The notes below the pieces were generated by a model that was not told where the DNA came from, did not search any database, and worked only from the letters and a program-made list of their open reading frames with translations. Below are positions 24,608 to 55,964 of a DNA stretch of 64,000 bases, piece by piece. The position numbers were made by a program, and so were the translations under genes. Origin of the DNA: an uncultured Nitrososphaerales archaeon (lineage in GTDB: Archaea > Thermoproteota > Nitrososphaeria > Nitrososphaerales > Nitrososphaeraceae); NCBI GenBank assembly GCA_963709405.1, contig CAVPXM010000050.1:1-64000 (forward strand). The letters are read 5' to 3'. Position 1 is the first letter of the stretch. Each line of letters starts with the position of its first letter.

Positions 24608-25328
24608 CAGGACCAAAACCAGCATAATGATTGTTTGCTCCTACTATTGCCAGATTAATTTTCTCTTGTTCTTCATCTCTGGCTCTTTTCAGAAATCTAG
24701 CCCATTTTTTCATCTCTGAAACCCTATCTTTTTGTATCTTGCCAAAATCTTTTCCTTGTATGGTCCTATCTCCAATGAATCTAATATACAGAAAATCTGA
24801 TGTAACTATTGGAGGAGTTCTTATTCCAGCAAGTTGACTCTAGACCATGCACATATTGTTATTTGCAAAAAAACTATATGCCAAGTCTTGAAACCAAGAA
24901 CTGTCTCTAACTTCTACAGCATACCTGAATCTTTTATCTAATTCAGGTATGATATCTCTTAAACGATTCATGCCTTCAACTATACCCATCGATGGTGGTA
25001 GCTGTATTAATAATGCTAAGATTTTATCTTCAAGATAGACAATAGAAGAAAAGAATAATTCTAGTTCTTTTTCAACATTTTTTAATCTTTTATCATGAGT
25101 TATAACTTTTGGAAATTTAGCAGCAAATCTAAAATGGTCTGGAATCTTTTTACACCAGTTCTTTACCATAAATTCGTTAGGAATTCTGTAGAAAGAAGAA
25201 TCGATTTCGACAAAATCAAATACTTGAGCACAGTAATTTAGTCAACGGGAATTATCTAGATTGTGAGGATAAAATGGTCCTTGCCAAGCTGAATAACTCC
25301 ATCCAGAGCAGCCAATGTGGTATTGCAA
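24608..25328 (-). pseudogene. DUF72 family protein; two nonsense codons, C-terminus missing
   Basis: IGCSGWSY..WQGPFYP, VEIDSSFYRIP, KFPKVITH, LIQLPPS, YIRFIGDR, NNHYAGFGP; stops fall at expected Trp positions. Confidence 0.88.
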
Positions 25329-26939: not shown

Positions 26940-27098
26940 CTAATTTAAAAAATCTGATAAAGTAGTTTGCTTCGTATTACTGCTAGACAGCGCTTCTCCT
27001 GTCTTAGGCACTTCAACATCATCCCATATTACTTCTGATAAATCCAACATTTTTCTAAAAGTGTTAGCTGTTCCAGGACCAAATCCAGCATAATGATT
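26940..27098 (-). pseudogene. DUF72 C-terminal fragment ending in a PIP-box-like motif
   Basis: Manual translation NHYAGFGPGTANTFRKMLDLSEVIWDD...KQTTLSDFLN*. Confidence 0.75.
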
Positions 27099-27220
27099 CA
27101 AACCAGATTGCAATATCATCCCAATTTAATATAGAACGATGTTGAAGTGTATATATTCTATAAATAAAAAAAGATCGAATTTAAATATATAGCATAACAA
27201 TCTATATTTATTGCAATATA

Positions 27221-42451: not shown

Positions 42452-43185
42452 ATAGTTATGCAAATGCATACGTCAATTTCTTTTGATAACCTACAGCTGC
42501 ATGCTTCTCATACAAGATATGGCTATTAATAGATAGATAGAAGAGAAGATAATTCTCAATTATGCAGATTCTATGAATAAATCAATTTTTAGCAACAATT
42601 GCAGTATTGTTACTGATTAAATCAACATAAATGTAATCGATCGCAGATTATAGTTTGTCTGGGGTTTACGTCAAATTGTTTGCCATATTATCGTTATTAA
42701 ATATTAGCAAGTTCATTGATGATGATCTCATGACCATTTATAGTGTGGACTCCATAACCAGCTTTGGACAAATGCTTTACTATGGATTAGCCCATGGACT
42801 TGTAAACTCTGGATAAATGCTGTCTAATTATTATTTACCAAATAATGATGATCCTATATCAAGTGTCAAGATATTATATCTAAGTGTCCACTCTATACGT
42901 AACTTTGTTATCTATGAATAAATCAGTAATTCTCGCAATGGATATCGCACTTATTGCAATAGGAATGAAAGCGTCTAGTTTTTGCGTCAGCACTTGTGGA
43001 TACTCGGATAGTCGTGATTAGACCTAATGCGATTACTGCCGTAAGTACGATTATCTTATTGCTCATCTAGTTCGTATGCTGAAAAAAATTGCACCAATAT
43101 CTTATAGATAATAGTTACAGATCAAGATGTTGTAATTTATGTTCATAATCTTGGTATAATCAAATCTATTATACATTGTGTAGGT

Positions 43186-43476
43186 ATGAATCGAATTCAT
43201 ATTATCTCAGGAATAGCAATAGCGACAATAGCTCTATTGCTAGTTACGGCAACAATGTCAGATCAGCAGTCCGCGTTCGCACATAGAAACCACCACCACA
43301 ATGGTCATCATAATAATCATCATGGTAGTAATGGCGGAGCTGGAGCAGCTGATAGCAGCCGGTGGCAGCATAGCAGCAGCGGCAGTAGCCGGCGACAGCG
43401 CAGCAGCAGGAGGCAGCAGTGGCAGCACAGCCGGTGGCAGCGAGGACAGCAGGAGGAGCCGGTGGCAGATGATTGA
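43186..43476 (+). CDS. Secreted His-rich, Gly/Ala/Ser-rich peptide (probably frameshifted)
   Basis: Signal peptide ending SAFA, then HRNHHHNGHHNNHHGSNGGAG; GCA/GGC repeats follow. Confidence 0.65.
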   Translation: MNRIHIISGIAIATIALLLVTATMSDQQSAFAHRNHHHNGHHNNHHGSNGGAGAADSSRWQHSSSGSSRRQRSSRRQQWQHSRWQRGQQEEPVADD

Positions 43477-43589
43477 TATTTGTGAGCAAGATTAGGGAAT
43501 GGAATGGAAAGAACGTCCATAATCACATTTTTTTCAAAAAATCAACTATTATTATAAAGAGAAGGTAAGCAAATATAGACAAGTATAGA

Positions 43590-44027
43590 GTGATCATTAT
43601 GAAAAGAGAATCTAAATTTCTACTTATTAGTCTCCTTGCAGTTTTGACAGTGACATCATCTTCAATGTTACTATCTAATCAATTGTTGTTGCCCACATTC
43701 TCACCATCATTACCATTACTATCATTTTCACCTACTATCGTCCAAACTGCAAAAGCTGATGTGAATATTGATACTTCTGGAAATGGAAAAGCAGCTGCCT
43801 TTGATGGTAAAAATAGTATAACTTCAGATGGAAAGGGCTTTTGCAATACTGTTGACAATATTGCTGGAGGAAAGTTTGCACCTCTGTTCAGTGGAATCGT
43901 TGATTGCAAATCTTCGAATAACCCAAAACAGTTTATTGTGGGCTATTCAGTAATAAAAGACCCTGTAAAGGTAGGTGATACAACGTACATGTCCGTAGCT
44001 GTTAGAGATAAGGATCTGCGGCTATAG
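43590..44027 (+). pseudogene. Secreted protein, truncated
   Basis: Signal peptide; ends abruptly after KDPVKVGDTTYMSVAVRD. Confidence 0.5.
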
Positions 44028-44208
44028 CATCAGGTATCATTGCTAAATCCGATGAACATTTGCCCAAGGATATCTACGTATACCAGTTACCTAATAGGAG
44101 ACTTGCTTGAAGTACCGCCTCCAATCTTGAAGTGGCCGTTGCTATCTTTGTTATAGGTATTACCGTAAATTGTAGTAGGATTTCCCCTTCCCCTACCAAC
44201 GTTACGAC

Positions 44209-44280
44209 TTAAGTCTCGCCCTTGACCTGAACCACGCAGAAGAGGTTGCCATCGGGATCTTCCAACATGACAAAGTCATA
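44209..44280 (-). pseudogene. VOC/glyoxalase C-terminal fragment
   Basis: LEDPDGNLFCVVQ. Confidence 0.5.
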
Positions 44281-44329
44281 AGAAAAAATTGAGCGGGCAA
44301 CTCTTGTTATAGGTAATGCAGATTATCTT

Positions 44330-44539
44330 TTAAGTCGTCACCACTGTGCCTGCGCCACCTGATCCACCATTATGTCCATTCCCGGAATGATGACCACAGT
44401 GCTCGTGTCAGTGTCCTGCATGCCCATGGCCATGAGATCCAGAATGGTGTGCTTGTACTGGTGCTGATGCCGATACTATCTCTACTGCTGCTACCGTCAT
44501 CACTATGGTAACGATCAGTAACAATGCTTTAAGATTCAT
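44330..44539 (-). CDS. Secreted His/Gly-rich peptide with an in-frame TGA
   Basis: MNLKALLLIVTIVMTVAAVEIVSASAPVQA-HHSGSHGHGHAGH*HEHCGHHSGNGHNGGSGGAGTVVTT*. Confidence 0.7.
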
Positions 44540-44774
44540 TGTCCTGAGTGCGGTTAGAGAGGCCTATTTGCAAATTGGCAGGATATAGGTTGGTATTTAA
44601 ACTGTGGTTATAATACTATCAGGAAACGATAGCCTACAAAGACGATGTAAATCTATACCCTTCGTGTGACTACTGCGGCAAAACTCATAAGAATACATTT
44701 GTGATTTGTAACTTTTGTGACAAGACATCATATTATAAATGTAGCATTAACCATATCAAATAGTGTCCAGAAAA

Positions 44775-44921
44775 ATGAAATGTCCTAACTGTGGTCAAGA
44801 AGATTGCAAAACTTATTTTGTCATAGAAGGGGGTCCAATGGTTATGTTTGAAGAAGAATATCTAAACTTTTACTGTTATAATTGTAAACATTCAATTGCG
44901 AAGTTTCTGATAGGCGAGTAA
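44775..44921 (+). CDS. 48-aa zinc-finger microprotein (not in ORF track)
   Basis: MKCPNCGQEDCKTYFVIEGGPMVMFEEEYLNFYCYNCKHSIAKFLIGE. Confidence 0.65.
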   Translation: MKCPNCGQEDCKTYFVIEGGPMVMFEEEYLNFYCYNCKHSIAKFLIGE

Positions 44922-45015
44922 AACTCAGAATTCTATACATACAGTGGTGTCCAGTAGAGAAAGGCTTAAAGTAACGTATTAAAAATATGAGGGAGTGAAA
45001 GCCGTCATCACTAGA

Positions 45016-45123
45016 CTAATTCAACGCTACTCCCGCGTGTGCTGCCTGTGTTCCTGTCGCAACTACTATTCCTAATCCACCGGCAACGAGAGCCCCGATC
45101 ATGGCTAGTAATTTCTTTGCCAT
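45016..45123 (-). CDS. 35-aa secreted propeptide (signal peptide + GVALN)
   Basis: MAKKLLAMIGALVAGGLGIVVATGTQAAHA-GVALN*; GC-richer than flanks; TATA-like box upstream. Confidence 0.7.
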   Translation of the reverse strand: MAKKLLAMIGALVAGGLGIVVATGTQAAHAGVALN

Positions 45124-45143
45124 TATATGACAACGTATAGGAT

Positions 45144-45158
45144 ATTATATAGGGTTTA
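45144..45158 (-). promoter_or_regulatory. Putative BRE/TATA promoter of the 35-aa peptide gene
   Basis: Minus strand TAAACCC-TATATAAT, with the TATA 21-28 nt before the ATG, consistent with a leaderless archaeal transcript. Confidence 0.5.
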
Positions 45159-45850
45159 TGACAAAAGTCCAACAAGGTTCGATAATGCCGAACAGTATAG
45201 CGATCAGCATATTTATTTATCGATTTACAGATTTATTCTGTATCTTTAACTGTTAAAGCATGGGATAATGAGGAAAGTCGTCTACAAATATATCAGAATT
45301 ATTTTTGCTTGCTTAAATGTGAAAGGCTATTACATGACTTCAATTTGATTTTTTCCCAATGAATTTGAAAAAGCTCAAAGAAGATCTATAACCTGAATGA
45401 GTAAATAAAGTAAACAAGAATTGAAAGGTGAGGATGATAAATCTAACAAGTAGCTGACTAACTATCTACATAACTAATAAAACATAACATAGTATAAGAT
45501 CAAATGAATAACGAACTAGATTGATGGGATCATAATACCATTATTATCTATTTAGAAGAAGTACAATAAAATGATGATAACAATAATCCGATCCGATTAT
45601 GTACCTTACGTAGATCCATCTTTCGTGCTCTAAAAGACTATAGATCGACAAATTGATAAATACAAAATTCAGAAAGTTAGAATGATGATAATAATTGTGA
45701 GTAATGAATCTACGCACTATGTAAACTTGAATCACTGCCTATCATAACTCATATGTATAATCCCATTTCTTGTAATCTATGTTTGTGGGCAACTAAACCG
45801 AATATTACAAATACCACCTTCCCCAAATAATACGCGATAGTATTGATGCT

Positions 45851-47398
45851 ATGATGATGTCGGTAGCTGACGAACTAAAGCGTATAGCGAGGGGTGAAAT
45901 ACTCTCAGATGATTGGAGCAAAGGAGTATATTCTGTTGATGCAAGCCATTATTCAATTAAACCATCAGTGATATTGTTTCCATTAGATGAACATGATCTT
46001 TCAGAAATATGTCGATATGGATATTCTAAAAATGTATCCATAACCGCAAGGGGGGCAGGGACGGGACTTTTAGGTCAATCACTTAACGATAACATAATTA
46101 TTGATTTTTCAAAACATATGAATAAGATCTTGGAGATTGAAAGTGATTATGTATTAGTCCAACCAGGGATAGTAAAAGGTGTGTTGGACAGAGAATTGAA
46201 GAAAAAAGGAAAATTTCTACCTCCCGATCCAGCGAGTAGCAATTATTGTACTATTGGTGGCATGATTGCGAATAATTCGAGTGGTATTCATACATTAGGA
46301 TATGGTAGTACAATTGATTACCTAGATATGGTTAATGTAGCATACTCTGATGGCAATCTTGGATCTATCGGTGGTGGCAATACTAATATCAATTATGATA
46401 GAAATTATGGCGACGATGATAAGATAGCAAAATTATACAAATTACTGTCATCACGTAGTAATATGGAACTAATCGATAAACGATATCCAAAGGTAATAAA
46501 AAATTCATGTGGCTATCGTCTTGACGAGGTAATGAAGAATAAAAAATTCTGTGCACACAAAATATTTGCAGCCTCAGAGGGAACATTAGGAATCGTAACT
46601 TCGGCAAAACTAAGAATTGTCGATATTCCACTTTATAGAACTACAATAGTATTTGCATTTAAAGACATATTATATGCCATGTCGGCTGTCCCGTCCATTT
46701 TGAAATTCTCTCCAGTTGCTCTAGAAATGATGGATGAGACCGTATTCCGGAATTTTGATGACAGCCCATCTTCCAAAGCGATGAATAAAGATGTTAGGTA
46801 TCATTGTGGTGACGGTTGTTTATTATTTGTGGAATTTGCTGGGGATAATCTTGCAGATGTCGAACAGAAATTTGCTGGTTGCAAGGGCAAATTATCATCT
46901 ATGTCTACTATGGTAGAGAGTGTATCTGATGAAAATAGCTCCGGACTAATATGTGGAGCGAGAAAAAATGCATTAAATAATATCACTAAATTGACTGTGG
47001 GAAGTAGAAAGCCTCAGGGTTTGATAGAAGATACGGTAGTATCTCCAAACGTACCTTATGATTATACTCAGTTTATTTTACAAAAATATATTGAGAACAA
47101 GCTGGAGTATGTAATATATGGTCATGCTGGTGATGGAAATCTACACACAAGACCAATGATAAATATAGAATCACAAAATGAAGTTGAATTATATAATCTT
47201 CTAGCAGAGGAAGTTTTTACAAAAGTCATCAAGTATGGCGGAACAATAACTGGGGAACACCGTGACGGTATAGCCAGAACTAAATACATCAAATTAATGT
47301 ATGGCTCACTTGTAGTTTCAATTTTTGAACAAATCAAAAAAATATTCGATCCCAAGTCTATTATGAATCCTGGTAAAAAGGTTATAAATCGGTCTTAA
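45851..47398 (+). CDS. FAD-binding oxidoreductase (GlcD / D-lactate dehydrogenase family)
   Basis: RGAGTGLLG, PPDPASSNYCTIGGMIANNSSG, SEGTLGIVT, GHAGDGNLH, TGEH, FDPKSIMNPGK. Confidence 0.92.
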   Translation: MMMSVADELKRIARGEILSDDWSKGVYSVDASHYSIKPSVILFPLDEHDLSEICRYGYSKNVSITARGAGTGLLGQSLNDNIIIDFSKHMNKILEIESDYVLVQPGIVKGVLDRELKKKGKFLPPDPASSNYCTIGGMIANNSSGIHTLGYGSTIDYLDMVNVAYSDGNLGSIGGGNTNINYDRNYGDDDKIAKLYKLLSSRSNMELIDKRYPKVIKNSCGYRLDEVMKNKKFCAHKIFAASEGTLGIVTSAKLRIVDIPLYRTTIVFAFKDILYAMSAVPSILKFSPVALEMMDETVFRNFDDSPSSKAMNKDVRYHCGDGCLLFVEFAGDNLADVEQKFAGCKGKLSSMSTMVESVSDENSSGLICGARKNALNNITKLTVGSRKPQGLIEDTVVSPNVPYDYTQFILQKYIENKLEYVIYGHAGDGNLHTRPMINIESQNEVELYNLLAEEVFTKVIKYGGTITGEHRDGIARTKYIKLMYGSLVVSIFEQIKKIFDPKSIMNPGKKVINRS

Positions 47399-47608
47399 TA
47401 TACAATATTAATTCGTTCTAATTGATAATCAAAAATTATAAAGATATTATGTATGGTACGAGTCTAATGTATGGTAAGAGTCTAAGATGATAAAAACAGT
47501 ATTGAACACGTGTATAGCAATAAAGATGCATTATGAAAGTTAAATTTAAAATTTTAAATTGATTCAAAATTGAAAAACTAAAGTTACACTATATTATATG
47601 ATAGATAT

Positions 47609-48700: not shown

Positions 48701-49462
48701 TTTGAGAACGCTTCTAGTTCTGTATTATTGTCTCTTAGAACGGTATTCATATCCGTATCTATAGCTCCATCTCACATATTTTATTAATAAGATCTTTTCG
48801 GCTTTGTAGAATACATGCATTTGATATATGATGCTATTGTATTCATAGTATTACTACTGCAATATGTAGATGTCATCTATAAAAATGCATAAGATGTATT
48901 CATGCTGTTCAAAATTCTTGATAGTAATGCATCTTTCATATCACTCAAATACATACAAATTATTCCAAGTCGATATGTTTTGAGATAAACTTAATTAGTC
49001 TAAATTTTAAGATGACGTACTTTATTAACATGATTTGATTTGATTGAAAAGAAACGAACAGGATATGCTTTTACCACACTGGTTATTAAATTGATTATTA
49101 CTGCAGCTTATATTATTAATATATCAATGAGAATGCCAAATTATATGGCTTAACAGTTGACAAGATAGCAGCAACAAAATATAAAGTGACAATTAATGTA
49201 TAAAAGATTCAAAATCTCTATCCAAAACGACGTAGTTATAGCCTACGTCATTATATTTGCAATATCATATTGGCTGCTCCGGATGGAGTTATTCAGCATG
49301 GCAAGGACCATTTTATCCTCTCATTCTAGAAAATTCCGAATGGTTAGGCATCTTCGATTAATTGTAGAAATCAAAATAATGTACTTGTGATCATGATGTA
49401 GAAAATTAAACAGATCGATGTTAATGCTAGATATTTAACTTGTGTTACTTATTGTTCTATCT

Positions 49463-53739: not shown

Positions 53740-55964
53740 TTGACTACCACCTCTACTACGCCATATCCTCCAACCAAAGACAGGAGTTCAGAAATATTAT
53801 ATGGTGTCGAAAAAGCTGTGGGTCGTGGAGTTTATTTTATGTCAAATGTGAGAGAGAAGATGGATATTTTTTTTGATAAAAATGCTCCTTCGATTGTGGT
53901 AGATGTTGTAGAATACAAAAATGGTTACAAAGACATCCAAAAGAGAGGAGGAAAGATAAGAGCATTTACAGAAATTACAAAAGATAATGTTCATTATTGT
54001 AAGCAATTGATAAAACTAGTTGATGAACTCAAACATTTAGAGGGAGTCAAAGGCGGTGTCGCAGTTAGTGAAAGCGAGTATATGGCTACAACACTATTGC
54101 AAGAAAGCACTCCCCTTATGCAGGTCATTTACAGTAATGTGAAGGAGGTAGTTGAACAAGCTCAATATATTTTTGATACTCTTTGGAAGACAGCAATTCC
54201 AGCTGAGCAAAAAATCAGAGAACTAGAGGAGGGTATTGTTATACATAAAACAAGAATTATAGAGAATGCAGAAGAGAATCATTAGAGAATTCAACCGTTT
54301 CTCAGATGTATCAAATGAGGTTTTATCTTGCATATCTGCACCTGGAGGTTTGCAATATGTACAGGATTATTTCGTTGAGTCAAACAGGAAATTGATAGAA
54401 AAGCAGATGAAAGGACAACATAAAGGAATAAGATATATTTGTAACATAGATAACAAGTATAATGCAAATCTTGCTCGAAAGTTTCTACAAGATGGCGTAA
54501 AGATAAGACACACTAGTAATCTTCCACCAATGAGTTTTGGCATAACTAACAAAGAGATAGCAGTAACATTTGAAAGAATAGAAAGGGGAAAACAAGTTCA
54601 GATACTGTTAATCAGTGATGAACCAATGTATGTAAAGTATTTCTCCAAGGTATTTGAAGAACTATGGACAGATAGTATTGATGCTCAGGGTAGGCTGGAT
54701 GAGAATCGACCAAGGTATTGTAGTCCCCTCTAACATTGAAATAATTAGGAATCCTGGCAAAGCAATTCAACGGATTTTAGAGGAATTTAAAAACGCAGAT
54801 TTTGAAATTTTTGGGATAATTCCAACACTTAATTCTTTTCGTCGTCTGGTCCGATCAGGATCTATACAACTATTAGATGAATCGGCTAGAAAGGGATTAA
54901 GTATTAGGATATTGATTCCTGGTGATAAGGACACAGTGAATCAAATTCTAGAACAAGAATATGCGAGACAAATGAAAGAAAACCAGTTCTTGAAGAGAAG
55001 AACTAATCAAAGTAAGAGTAATAGTGACTATACTAACAATTTCGATTACAAAATCGAGATCAAGTGTATTGATATAGGTTCACAAACGAGTTTAGGCATT
55101 CTAGTAATTGATAGAAAATGGTCCTTTATCATAGAGACAAAAGATGATACAAAGGATAATTCCTACGACGCGGCAGGACTTGCAATATATTCAAATAGTA
55201 AACATATGGCATTATCTTATATTTCAATCCTTGAATTCTTATGGAAACAGATTGAAGTAGCAGAACAACTTAAGTTACATGATAGAATGAAAAATGAGTT
55301 TGTTAATATGGCTGCGCACGAGTTACGAACACCTATTCAACCAATATTGGGCTTGGCAGATATTCTGGGTAGTAAGAAAGGTAATATTGAACAATATCAA
55401 GAATTTATATCCATTATTAGTAGGAACGCGCGTCGTTTAAAATTTCTTACCGAAGATATTTTGGATGTATCAAGGATTGATGGTAACTCATTAGAACTAA
55501 GAAATGATGTATTTGATTTGGTCGTTACAATTAATGGTTTATTAGATGATTATAGTAAAGATCGTGAAGGTGTTGCGAATGGGTGTAATATATCATTCAA
55601 ATGTAGATTCAAGAATGCTTTTGTTCTTGGAGATAGACAAAGAATTCGCCAAGTTGTCCATAATTTATTGGACAATGCATTAAAATTTACAAAACATGGA
55701 TCACTTATAGTATCATTATCAGAGAAGACAAGGAATGTAAATGAATGGAATATCGCTGTAAAGGACGATGGTGAAGGTATTGATTCAGAGATAATGCCGA
55801 GGCTATTTACGAAATTTGCGACGAAATCAGAGCATGGGATAGGGTTGGGCTTGTATATTTCAAAGAGTATAATAGAGGCGCATGGCGGCAAAATATGGGC
55901 CAAGAATAATATCAATGGCAGAGGTGCTACCTTTGCTTTTAGCTTGCCGCAGTTGCCGACCTGA
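53740..55964 (+). CDS. Sensor histidine kinase with N-terminal TrmB/PLD-like repeats; two frameshifts (~54280, ~54700)
   Basis: Three consecutive ORFs; AAHELRTPIQP, NLLDNALKF, DDGEGID, GIGLGLYISKSIIEAHGG. Confidence 0.9.

What the first reader, a model, noticed from the sequence alone, without database searches (positions are those of the whole stretch)
45016..45158. 35-aa archaeal propeptide that would release a pentapeptide (GVALN): candidate Phr/AimP-like peptide signal
Seen: an intact ORF below the ORF-track cutoff, MAKKLLAMIGALVAGGLGIVVATGTQAAHA|GVALN*, with a TATA-like box 21-28 nt upstream. It is almost entirely a Sec signal peptide (KK n-region, hydrophobic h-region, AHA signal peptidase I motif) and leaves only 5 residues after cleavage. 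Established: Bacillus Phr and phage arbitrium AimP precursors are short secreted propeptides processed to 5-6-residue signals. Inference: this may encode a secreted peptide signal in an ammonia-oxidising archaeon; I know of no described system of that kind. No receptor is adjacent, and any link to the sensor kinase at 53.7 kb is unsupported.
Basis: partly seen in the sequence, partly recalled or inferred. Interest (0 to 1): 0.8.

Follow-up and report, generated by a model that had tools for sequence, protein, structure and literature searches.

The report
Archaeal mini-gene family encoding secreted pentapeptides
This 35-codon gene is real and belongs to a large, undescribed family in soil ammonia-oxidising archaea that looks built to release tiny peptides ending in asparagine, which may be peptide signals, a kind of signal I found no report of in archaea.

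Summary
It is not a chance ORF. It belongs to a family of about 33-36-aa ORFs found only in the window's own family (records titled Nitrososphaeraceae): 24 of 151 genomes and 10 of 18 genera there, and 0 of 227 genomes from 19 other families of the order. A library of 1.84 billion proteins holds 243 clusters, and 132 of the best 150 end in Asn. Members share a K/R start, a conserved GALIxGGLG hydrophobic core, and an A/V-x-A site with -1 Ala in 117 of 118. A hypervariable 4-6-residue tail follows, then an invariant Asn and the stop. The tail is under strong purifying selection (omega about 0-0.07), and identical pentapeptides recur across genera with different codons. Genes often form tandem arrays, with a TATA box before the first gene and Shine-Dalgarno motifs before internal ones. 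Arrays usually lie between a PRTase gene and a hydrolase gene, sometimes beside a histidine kinase and response regulator. The rare long forms appear to be derived fusions, so the ORF is not a remnant. Cleavage, secretion and signalling are untested, and no receptor is known.

The parts
45144..45151 (-). TATA-like box TATATAAT, -28..-21 from the ATG; probable promoter of a leaderless mRNA
   Evidence: The block is kept in the same-genus copies. A TATA-like hexamer at -18..-40 is present in 15 of 28 first or solitary family genes against 2 of 18 internal array genes.
45124..45174 (-). Upstream stretch of about 50 nt conserved among same-genus copies (promoter region)
   Evidence: DNA matches to relatives run from window 45013-45019 up to 45151-45174 at 74-83% identity and stop there.
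45016..45123 (-). 35-codon ORF plus TAG stop; precursor peptide
   Evidence: HMM score 73.4 bits, E 9.5e-20 in the own genome. It is the only copy found in the own genome.
45112..45123 (-). n-region MAKK (positively charged, predicted cytoplasmic side)
   Evidence: Family column 3 is K in 109 of 120 representatives.
45055..45111 (-). Hydrophobic h-region or transmembrane helix LLAMIGALVAGGLGIVVAT, with the conserved GALIxGGLG core
   Evidence: Columns A10 (114/120), G14 (117/120) and G15 (108/120). A11, G15 and G16 are at least 90% conserved in alignment A2.
45034..45054 (-). c-region GTQAAHA with the predicted type I signal peptidase site A-H-A
   Evidence: Across the family, -3 is A in 98 and V in 19 of 120, -1 is A in 117 of 118, and -2 is variable at 2.72 bits.
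45019..45033 (-). Tail GVALN; predicted released or exposed pentapeptide with the invariant C-terminal Asn
   Evidence: Omega is about 0-0.07 over codons 23-35 among the short copies ending GVALN.
44981..44985 (-). T5 run 30 nt after the stop; possible archaeal terminator (inference only)
   Evidence: No hairpin terminator was found. This stretch is not conserved among copies.

Best explanation
The ORF is a genuine, translated gene for a 35-aa precursor of a Nitrososphaeraceae-specific peptide family. Residues 1-30 act as an N-in, Sec-type signal peptide: a KK n-region, a conserved Gly-rich hydrophobic core, a helix-breaking stretch of G/S/T (Pro in many relatives), then A-H-A. Type I signal peptidase cuts after Ala30 on the outer face of the membrane. 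This frees the C-terminal pentapeptide GVALN into the space under the S-layer or into the medium. The pentapeptide, with its obligatory C-terminal Asn, is the functional product. Related genomes encode many different tails, often as operon-like arrays, giving a repertoire of distinct short peptides. The most likely role is a diffusible peptide cue between cells, with the tail setting specificity. Shown here: the gene is real, conserved and selected. Shown here: the A/V-x-A site, the tail and the Asn-then-stop architecture hold across the family. Shown here: selection acts on the tail's amino-acid sequence, and promoter and SD motifs sit where translated genes need them. Inferred: membrane insertion, cleavage, release, and any signalling role or receptor.
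For: Conservation. DNA similarity in 4 of 6 same-genus genomes is limited to the ORF plus about 50 nt upstream. HMM hits occur in 24 of 151 genomes and 10 of 18 genera of the family, and in 0 of 227 genomes of 19 other families of the order. The 1.84-billion-protein library holds 243 clusters at E<=0.001, mostly 32-36 aa, with the match running to the C-terminus.

Architecture. Of 60 unique hits with a start codon, 47 end in Asn then stop, as do 132 of the best 150 library representatives. The background is 386 of 8861 (4.4%) for all 30-40-aa ORFs of the own genome, and 7 of 171 for hydrophobic ones. The Asn codon is AAC or AAT and all three stop codons are used.

Cleavage-site signature. Position -1 is Ala in 117 of 118 and -3 is Ala or Val in 117 of 120. 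Position -2 is free (entropy 2.72 bits). Pro occupies about -6 in 48 of 74 sequences with a residue there.

Selection. Among the short copies ending in GVALN or RVALN, codons 23-35 have Sd 1-5 against Nd 0-2. Omega is 0-0.07 among the window copy, L004, L007 and L008, and up to 0.35 in pairs with L005. Codons 1-22 have omega 0.3-2.5. Identical tails recur across genera with different codons. GVALN is GGA GTA GCG TTG AAT in the window and GGT GTC GCG CTT AAC in G095. ALSTN uses TCC in one genus and AGT in another for Ser.

Translation signals. Internal array genes carry GGAG/GAGG/AGGA at -3..-18 in 10 of 18 cases, against 2 of 28 first or solitary genes. TATA-like boxes show the reverse pattern, 2 of 18 against 15 of 28.

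The same leader heads a 154-aa soluble helical protein in G005. This shows the module is used as an export or anchor signal.
Against: No program for signal peptides was available, so the cleavage rests on sequence rules alone. The hydrophobic stretch is about 19 residues long and its sequence is conserved (GALIxGGLG). That is more typical of a functional transmembrane helix than of a generic signal peptide. A 35-aa product cannot be targeted co-translationally.

No receptor, dedicated exporter, importer or TPR protein is adjacent in the window or among the recurrent neighbours. The kinase found beside three arrays has no predicted membrane segment, so it cannot sense an external peptide directly.

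The invariant C-terminal Asn is unexplained by simple secretion and may point to a modification. The own genome has a single orphan copy in a non-syntenic region.

The family counts were made on hits of an HMM that already contains the N and A columns, which inflates them somewhat. The stop codon directly after the Asn is not part of the model.
Confidence: 0.5

Rival explanations
1. The product is an uncleaved single-pass membrane micro-protein. The 35-mer stays in the membrane, N-in and C-out, as a small subunit or modulator of a membrane complex. The conserved GALIxGGLG helix packs against a partner, and the roughly 12-residue exterior stub (GTQAAHAGVALN) contacts it.
For: The h-region is long, about 19 residues. 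Its sequence is conserved across genera: A10 in 114/120, G14 in 117/120 and G15 in 108/120. It carries a small-xxx-small pattern (G10, A14, G18, A22 in the window copy). Very short proteins are often inserted without cleavage; that is general knowledge and was not tested here.
Against: The conservation pattern is the (-3,-1) rule: -1 Ala 117/118, -3 Ala or Val 117/120, -2 free. A structural stub would not produce that pattern. The residues after the site are the most variable of the whole peptide (entropy 2.3-3.5 bits), yet tail length and the terminal Asn are fixed. Arrays of up to 8-9 paralogues with different tails (L049) fit a subunit role poorly. No membrane-complex gene recurs next to the family.
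Confidence: 0.27
2. The ORF is a precursor of a modified peptide (RiPP-like). The conserved N-terminal 30 residues serve as a leader recognised by enzymes. The variable core is modified, and the invariant C-terminal Asn is the chemical handle. The PRTase-family protein and the alpha/beta hydrolase that flank most arrays would be candidate tailoring and processing enzymes.
For: A conserved leader, a hypervariable core and multi-copy tandem precursors form the classic RiPP precursor pattern. The invariant terminal Asn recalls microcin C precursors; that comparison is recalled, not tested. In 10 of 15 loci with larger flanks a PRTase gene lies directly upstream on the same strand, and in 7 of 15 a DLH-type hydrolase is convergent.
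Against: The leader looks like a membrane or Sec signal, unlike known RiPP leaders. The PRTase and hydrolase have no signal peptide. They are homologues of widespread bacterial proteins of unknown function (1wd5 TT1426, 2o2g). They occur without any such peptide in five near-complete genomes of the family and in the own genome. The window copy and the other same-genus GVALN copies are not next to them. No ThiF/MccB, YcaO, radical SAM or lanthipeptide enzyme recurs nearby.
Confidence: 0.12
3. The ORF is a truncated remnant. It is the promoter, signal peptide and first residues of a gene for a secreted protein with an 'LNGFNDW' domain, cut off by a stop codon and without a function of its own.
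For: L011 (G005) encodes the same leader followed by ...AAALNGFNDWN... and a helical domain of about 120 aa. L010 and L003 are further copies. That domain forms a family of 86 hypothetical proteins and often starts at 'LNGFNDW'. The window's final 'LN' therefore aligns with the domain's first residues. Several same-genus copies are frameshifted or decayed (L012, L014, L009, L016-L018).
Against: The short form is far older and wider (10 of 18 genera, 243 library clusters) than the leader-fused long form, which occurs in two species of one genus. Short members with unrelated tails also stop right after Asn. The tail is under strong purifying selection. The long form's leader is the nearest relative of the window copy (pS 0.11-0.14) and evolved at omega about 1.1-1.5, as expected for a recent fusion. 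The own genome has no LNGFNDW domain by tblastn.
Confidence: 0.04
4. The ORF is a type I toxin-like membrane peptide of a toxin-antitoxin or addiction module. This would explain the multiple dispersed copies in variable regions.
For: The product is small and hydrophobic. Copy number varies widely (0-13 per genome in the genus). The window copy lies in a non-syntenic region.
Against: Conservation stops at the stop codon and about 50 nt upstream, leaving no room for a structured 5' UTR or a conserved antisense RNA gene. There is no Rfam match. Members are strung in SD-linked operon-like arrays. The A/V-x-A site and the invariant terminal Asn have no role in such toxins.
Confidence: 0.03

Closest known systems
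Bacillus Phr propeptides (RRNPP quorum-sensing peptides; recalled knowledge)
   Same: Both are short ribosomal precursors of about 35-45 aa with a Sec-type signal peptide. The active part lies at the extreme C-terminus and is 5-6 residues long. Both have many paralogues with different pentapeptides per genome.
   Different: There is no pro-region here: the A/V-x-A site abuts the pentapeptide, so signal peptidase alone would suffice. No adjacent Rap or TPR receptor gene was found. The host is archaeal. The C-terminal Asn is invariant and the hydrophobic core is conserved. Genes form tandem operon-like arrays.
Phage arbitrium AimP (recalled knowledge)
   Same: A short secreted precursor whose C-terminal 6 residues are the signal.
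   Different: The ORF is not in a phage or prophage context. No aimR-like gene was found. One 20-base pattern search of viral contigs gave 0 hits, which is a very narrow test.
Microcin C precursors (MccA family; recalled knowledge, review PMC7136475 seen only in a search listing)
   Same: Very short ribosomal peptides with an obligatory C-terminal Asn directly before the stop.
   Different: MccA peptides have no signal peptide and need an adjacent ThiF-like MccB. No such gene recurs here.
Peptide + histidine kinase + response regulator modules of Firmicutes (Agr, ComCDE, bacteriocin regulation; recalled knowledge)
   Same: In three genomes from three genera (G143, G006, G153) the peptide array sits beside a histidine kinase. 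It is divergent from a response regulator (AbrB-like N-terminus by eye plus a REC domain) that is the best full-length match in each genome.
   Different: The kinase has no predicted membrane segment. There is no double-glycine leader and no C39-ABC exporter. The kinase family is hugely expanded in these genomes. The window copy has no such neighbours.
Small membrane proteins and type I toxins of bacteria (recalled knowledge)
   Same: Size of about 35 aa, one hydrophobic helix and a positively charged N-terminus.
   Different: The family has a signal-peptidase-type site, a hypervariable tail of fixed length, an invariant terminal Asn and SD-linked arrays.

Membership tests
Sec-type (class I) signal peptide with a type I signal peptidase site | Positively charged n-region, hydrophobic h-region, and small residues at -3 and -1 with a free -2 | tested here: met
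   K at column 3 in 109/120. -3 is A 98 or V 19 of 120. -1 is A in 117/118. Entropy at -2 is 2.72 bits. Pro is near -6 in 48 of 74. In the window the features are KK, LLAMIGALVAGGLGIVVAT and A-H-A. No SignalP-type predictor was available, and cleavage itself was not shown.
Phr / RRNPP propeptide signals | Short secreted precursor whose C-terminal 5-7 residues are the mature signal | tested here: inconclusive
   The architecture fits: a tail of 4-7 residues follows the site in 38 of 46 by strict A-x-A, and selection acts on the tail. Release and activity were not tested.
Phr / RRNPP propeptide signals | Cognate cytoplasmic TPR receptor (Rap, NprR, PlcR, PrgX, AimR) encoded next to the peptide gene | tested here: not met
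   Window neighbours are glyoxalase-like, Zn-ribbon, FAD oxidase, Usp, PPK2, AAA and HK proteins. Recurrent neighbours elsewhere are PRTase, DLH hydrolase, HK, RR, Rad51/KaiC-like, DUF72 and an unknown secreted protein. No TPR family was seen. Non-recurrent neighbours were not all scanned.
Phr / RRNPP propeptide signals | Re-import of the peptide by an oligopeptide permease | not tested
   No search for Opp or Dpp transporters was made.
Arbitrium (AimP/AimR/AimX) | Encoded in a phage or prophage beside aimR | tested here: not met
   There are no phage genes around the window copy. A 20-base pattern gave 0 hits in viral contigs. That test reaches only near-identical copies.
Microcin C-like (MccA/MccB) | Precursor ends in Asn | tested here: met
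   47 of 60 locus hits and 132 of 150 library representatives end in Asn.
Microcin C-like (MccA/MccB) | Adjacent ThiF/E1-like adenylyltransferase MccB | tested here: not met
   MccB is not among the recurrent neighbours nor among the window neighbours.
Type I toxin-antitoxin | Overlapping or adjacent antisense RNA and a regulated, structured mRNA leader | tested here: not met
   The conserved block runs only from about -50 to the stop codon. The promoter position implies a leaderless mRNA. No Rfam match. Members form SD-linked arrays. No RNA data cover the locus.
Gram-positive peptide/HK/RR three-component systems | Membrane-embedded sensor kinase that binds the external peptide | tested here: not met
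   The kinases adjacent to arrays in L069, L070 and L050 have no hydrophobic 19-residue window at or above 1.6 on the Kyte-Doolittle scale.
LNGFNDW-domain secreted proteins (long form) | Helical domain of about 120 aa beginning at LNGFNDW | tested here: not met
   The window ORF stops after LN. There is no domain remnant downstream and none anywhere in the own genome by tblastn.

The most novel reading that the evidence does not exclude
These genes encode the first ribosomal peptide pheromones of Archaea. Signal peptidase releases a repertoire of Asn-terminated pentapeptides (pherotypes such as GVALN, ALTTN, LIAAN and GIQFN that persist across genera). Soil ammonia oxidisers would use them for cell-cell communication or kin discrimination. 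In the ancestral locus they would feed back through the adjacent cytoplasmic histidine kinase and AbrB-REC regulator after re-import. The terminal Asn would serve as the recognition or modification handle.
Probability: 0.2. Interest if true: 0.95.

Novelty: new variant of a known kind. Interest (0 to 1): 0.78.

Why it matters
From recall, the signals known in archaea are small molecules such as acyl-homoserine-lactone-like compounds and diketopiperazines. My five searches and the passages of PMC12144867 seen turned up no archaeal peptide system of this kind and no description of this family. The family belongs to Nitrososphaeraceae, soil ammonia oxidisers that matter for nitrification and fertiliser loss. 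The predicted products are unmodified 4-6-mers that are cheap to synthesise. Whether archaea use peptide cues therefore becomes directly testable, by adding peptide and reading transcriptome, growth, biofilm or nitrification rate. Even if the peptides turn out to be membrane micro-proteins or modified natural products, this is a large and strongly selected small-gene family that standard annotation misses. It gave no Pfam or NCBIfam match. Its invariant Asn-then-stop rule is unexplained.

Tried and rejected
RNA evidence. One search for public runs found two soil metatranscriptomes with a small share of the words. Their contigs, 90-95% alike and so from relatives, cover 43000-44015 and 44411-44951 but not 44963-45264. 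This says nothing either way about the ORF.

Synteny. Six loci in relatives that match the neighbouring FAD oxidase (L086-L091, 77-81% aa identity) hold no family member and no DNA similarity to window 44000-45850. The window copy therefore lies in a variable region and has no positional orthologue there.

Kinase link. The kinase at 53.7-56 kb is one of many paralogues of an expanded cytoplasmic HK family. It is not the best match to the array-linked kinases, so the link was rejected.

Own 'home locus'. The best PRTase homologue of the own genome (C83:11443-12162) has no family ORF downstream. PRTase loci of five near-complete genomes without HMM hits also lack such ORFs.

Known RNA or known family. 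There were 0 Rfam matches at E<=1 in 42500-46000. Pfam and NCBIfam gave 0 families for the peptide. The ESM Atlas gave no usable hit. The sigma-70 and hairpin-terminator scan is not applicable to archaea and gave nothing useful.

Viral and metagenome pattern scans. A 20-base pattern had 0 hits in viral contigs. In metagenome contigs it had 11 hits, of which only 1 (L105) encodes a family member.

Ideas considered and dropped. A Cu-binding N-terminal His was rejected because position -2 is not conserved. A type IV pilin-like (class III) signal was rejected because no G/A/S follows the K/R pair. A lipoprotein was rejected because there is no Cys. A Tat signal was rejected because there is no RR.

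Literature. Five full-text searches were seen as listings and abstract starts only. PMC12144867 was read only as 'find' passages, with no mention of Thaumarchaeota, Nitroso*, signal peptide or asparagine.

Unpublished source. G092 is an unpublished genome. Its loci L029 and L060 are among the 45 rows of alignment A2 and among the counts. Two points rest partly on it: the cross-genus recurrence of the tail GIQFN among the genome loci, and the fourth case of response-regulator adjacency. The main conclusions do not depend on it.
Full report
THE OBSERVATION. The window holds an ATG-to-TAG ORF at 45016-45123 on the minus strand. It encodes MAKKLLAMIGALVAGGLGIVVATGTQAAHAGVALN. TATATAAT lies at 45144-45151, which is -28..-21 from the ATG, the position expected for an archaeal TATA box in front of a leaderless mRNA. 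The ORF is 50.9% G+C in a 30-35% surrounding. The assembly (4.83 Mb, 100 contigs, 91% complete, 3.7% contamination) contains an archaeal amoA at 392.7 bits. Its nearest public relatives are titled Nitrososphaeraceae archaeon. By itself a 35-codon ORF means little, because 74 ORFs of at least 20 aa overlap 43000-47500.

A FAMILY, NOT A CHANCE ORF. A DNA search of 40 relatives hit only the same genus, in 4 of 6 genomes. There were several copies per genome at 74-83% identity. The similarity was confined to the ORF plus about 50 nt upstream and ended at the stop codon. The copies keep the frame. Four (window, L004, L007, L008) end ...TGTQAAHAGVALN followed by stop. Others are frameshifted or decayed.

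A profile of nine members found matches in 24 of 151 genomes and 10 of 18 genera of the family, mostly in open frames of 31-56 aa. A profile of 45 members found matches in 9 of 73 sampled genomes of the family and in 0 of 227 genomes of 19 other families of the order. Against 1.84 billion representative proteins the same profile found 243 clusters at E<=0.001. The best 150 are mostly 32-36 aa long, and the match runs to the last residue. Pfam, NCBIfam, Rfam and the ESM Atlas do not know the family.

THE SHARED ARCHITECTURE. Of 70 unique locus hits, 60 have a start codon, and 47 of these end in Asn directly followed by a stop; 46 of the 47 are at most 40 aa. Of the best 150 library representatives, 132 end in Asn. 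The background in the own genome is 4.4% (386 of 8861 ORFs of 30-40 aa) and 7 of 171 for hydrophobic ones. The Asn codon is AAC or AAT and all three stops occur, so the constraint acts on the amino acid.

Column statistics come from 120 representatives:
- K at position 3: 109
- A10: 114
- G14: 117
- G15: 108
- Pro near -6: 48 of 74
- -3: Ala 98 or Val 19
- -2: free, 2.72 bits (E, H, S, Q, D...)
- -1: Ala in 117 of 118
- +1: mostly Gly or Ala
- the next three positions: the most variable of the peptide, 2.6-3.5 bits
- last position: Asn

This is the (-3,-1) signature of type I signal peptidase substrates, followed by a 4-6-residue variable tail. Strict A-x-A leaving 3-8 residues occurs in 38 of 46 locus members. 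Of the other eight, by eye, five have V-x-A or V-x-G and two have A-x-A leaving 9-10 residues. These sets were picked by an HMM that contains the conserved columns, which inflates the counts somewhat. The contrast between neighbouring columns, and the stop after Asn, are not imposed by the model.

SELECTION. Among the short copies ending in GVALN or RVALN (window, L004, L007, L008, L005), codons 23-35 show 1-5 synonymous against 0-2 non-synonymous differences per pair. Omega is 0-0.07 among the four copies ending GVALN, and up to 0.35 in pairs with L005. Codons 1-22 give omega 0.3-2.5, as expected when any hydrophobic residue will do.

Thirty-six distinct tails were seen in the genome loci. 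Six recur in two or three genera: ALTTN, GVALN, ALSTN, ALTAN, GIQFN and LIAAN. Where both sequences were printed, they use different codons. GVALN is GGA GTA GCG TTG AAT in the window, GGT GTC GCG CTT AAC in G095 and GGT GTA GCT CTC AAC in G006. ALSTN uses TCC against AGT for Ser. The pentapeptide sequence itself is therefore what is maintained.

TRANSLATION AND TRANSCRIPTION SIGNALS. Members are often strung head to tail: eight or nine in L049, three or four in L027, L050 and L051, and two in L006, L024, L026 and L031. First or solitary genes have a TATA-like hexamer at -18..-40 in 15 of 28 cases, and internal genes in 2 of 18. Internal genes have GGAG/GAGG/AGGA at -3..-18 in 10 of 18 cases, and first genes in 2 of 28. 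A leaderless first cistron followed by SD-led internal cistrons is, from recall, the usual layout of archaeal operons. No RNA data cover the window ORF.

THE LONG FORMS. In G005 (L011, L010) and G004 (L003, with a one-base frameshift) the same promoter and leader continue through ...AAALN into GFNDWN... and a helical domain of about 120 aa. That domain defines a family of 86 hypothetical Nitrososphaeraceae proteins. These usually have other N-termini, one of them with a metzincin-like HExxH segment, and often begin the domain at LNGFNDW.

Four points argue against reading the window ORF as a remnant. The leader-fused long form occurs in only two species of one genus. Its leader is the closest relative of the window copy (pS 0.11-0.14, with a shared upstream block) and evolved at omega about 1.1-1.5. 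The short form with unrelated tails is spread over ten genera. The own genome has no such domain. I read the long form as a recent fusion of a short gene to that domain at the shared L-N, not as the ancestor.

NEIGHBOURHOOD. In the window the ORF is an orphan. A Zn-ribbon ORF converges on it, and an FAD-linked oxidase diverges 730 nt upstream. Further away lie glyoxalase-like proteins, Usp, PPK2, an AAA ATPase and a kinase split into three ORFs. The oxidase-matching loci in relatives lack the peptide and the whole 44.0-45.85 kb stretch.

Elsewhere the family has a recurrent home. A PRTase-family gene (Pfam PF00156; closest solved structure 1wd5, a hypothetical protein) lies upstream on the same strand, with a gap of about 200 nt, in 10 of 15 loci with larger flanks. 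A dienelactone-hydrolase-type alpha/beta hydrolase (closest 2o2g) lies convergent in 7 of 15.

In three genomes of three genera (G143, G006, G153) the array also lies beside a histidine kinase and is divergent from a response regulator with an AbrB-like N-terminus (by eye) and a REC domain. In each of the three, that regulator is the genome's best and only near-full-length match. A fourth case comes from the unpublished G092.

These are leads, not proof. The genomes are related, so shared synteny may be inherited. The kinase has no membrane segment and belongs to a hugely expanded family. The PRTase occurs without peptides in the own genome and in five near-complete genomes.

MECHANISM. The reading best supported is a minimal secreted propeptide. 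The K/R n-region holds the N-terminus inside, and the hydrophobic core inserts. Signal peptidase I cuts after the invariant -1 Ala, and the 4-6-mer ending in Asn is set free outside the membrane.

Four findings point to a short, specific ligand rather than a structural stub. The tail has a fixed length. It is hypervariable between paralogues. It is tightly conserved within a type and across genera. There is a repertoire of tails per genome. Functionally this works like Phr, PapR or AimP precursors of Firmicutes and their phages. It is not a member of that class, because the defining adjacent TPR receptor is missing.

Two features remain unexplained by this reading: the sequence-conserved Gly-rich core (GALIxGGLG) and the obligatory terminal Asn. 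The core may serve recognition by a dedicated insertase or intramembrane protease. It may instead mean that the helix itself is functional, which is the micro-protein rival. The Asn may be a receptor contact or a site of modification, which is the RiPP-like rival in which the PRTase-family neighbour is the obvious suspect.

My odds are:
- released peptide: 0.5 (a signalling role within that about 0.2-0.3)
- uncleaved micro-protein: 0.27
- modified peptide: 0.12
- remnant: 0.04
- type I toxin: 0.03

NOVELTY AND VERDICT. I found no description of this family or of ribosomal peptide signals in archaea. That rests on five full-text searches seen as listings and abstract starts and on passages of one survey of archaeal RiPPs. 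Supplements could not be read.

The function is open but cheaply testable with synthetic pentapeptides and mass spectrometry. I rate it a new variant of a known kind (Sec-dependent short propeptides) in a domain where none is known, with interest 0.78.

Noticed in passing
window 42923-44539: There is a cluster of other small ORFs with signal-peptide-like N-termini and unusual tails. 44408-44539(-) is 43 aa and ends ...PVQAHHSGSHGHGHAGH. 43186-43476(+) is 96 aa, with ...SAFAHRNHHHNGHHNNHH followed by a Gly/Ser/Arg/Gln-rich part. 42923-43066(-) is 47 aa with a Cys-rich tail. 43590-44027(+) is 145 aa. None has a Pfam match. Soil metatranscriptome contigs from relatives (90-95% alike) cover 43000-44015 and 44411-44951. 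These may be metal-binding secreted peptides.
   Followed up: partly
window 24609-25328, 27024-27125, 49257-49358 and many other contigs of the own genome: A DUF72 (PF01904) gene is present in many full and fragmentary copies across the own genome. There are more than 30 tblastn pieces at 50-95% identity. DUF72 also lies near peptide copies in L004, L042, L049 and L052. This may reflect segmental duplication or a mobile region.
   Followed up: no
window 53740-55964 (+): A histidine kinase appears as three overlapping ORFs (53740-54285, 54266-54733, 54654-55964), so it is either frameshifted or an assembly error. It belongs to a cytoplasmic HK family with many paralogues of 33-40% identity in the own genome.
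   Followed up: partly
L011:635-1105(-), P0001-P0086: There is an 'LNGFNDW' helical domain family of 86 hypothetical Nitrososphaeraceae proteins with varied N-termini. One member (P0079) follows a metzincin-like HELGHNLGLDH segment. No Pfam family reaches its cut-off.
   Followed up: partly
L051:3593-4231(+), L008:787-1224(-); own genome C83:9563-10045 and about 10 other places: A multi-copy secreted protein of about 213 aa has no Pfam or NCBIfam match. It lies directly downstream of peptide genes on the same strand in L051 and L008, with a frameshifted copy in L012.
   Followed up: no
L118 (G007:C1:565579-569226): PRTase and DLH-type hydrolase homologues lie head to tail in one 452-aa open frame, an apparent fusion of the two genes that flank the peptide arrays elsewhere.
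   Followed up: no
window 43561-44411: One RNA contig of run X19 joins 43561 to 44411 with 16 other letters between them. A relative therefore lacks the 849 bases that hold the 145-aa ORF (tables 5 and 5c).
   Followed up: no
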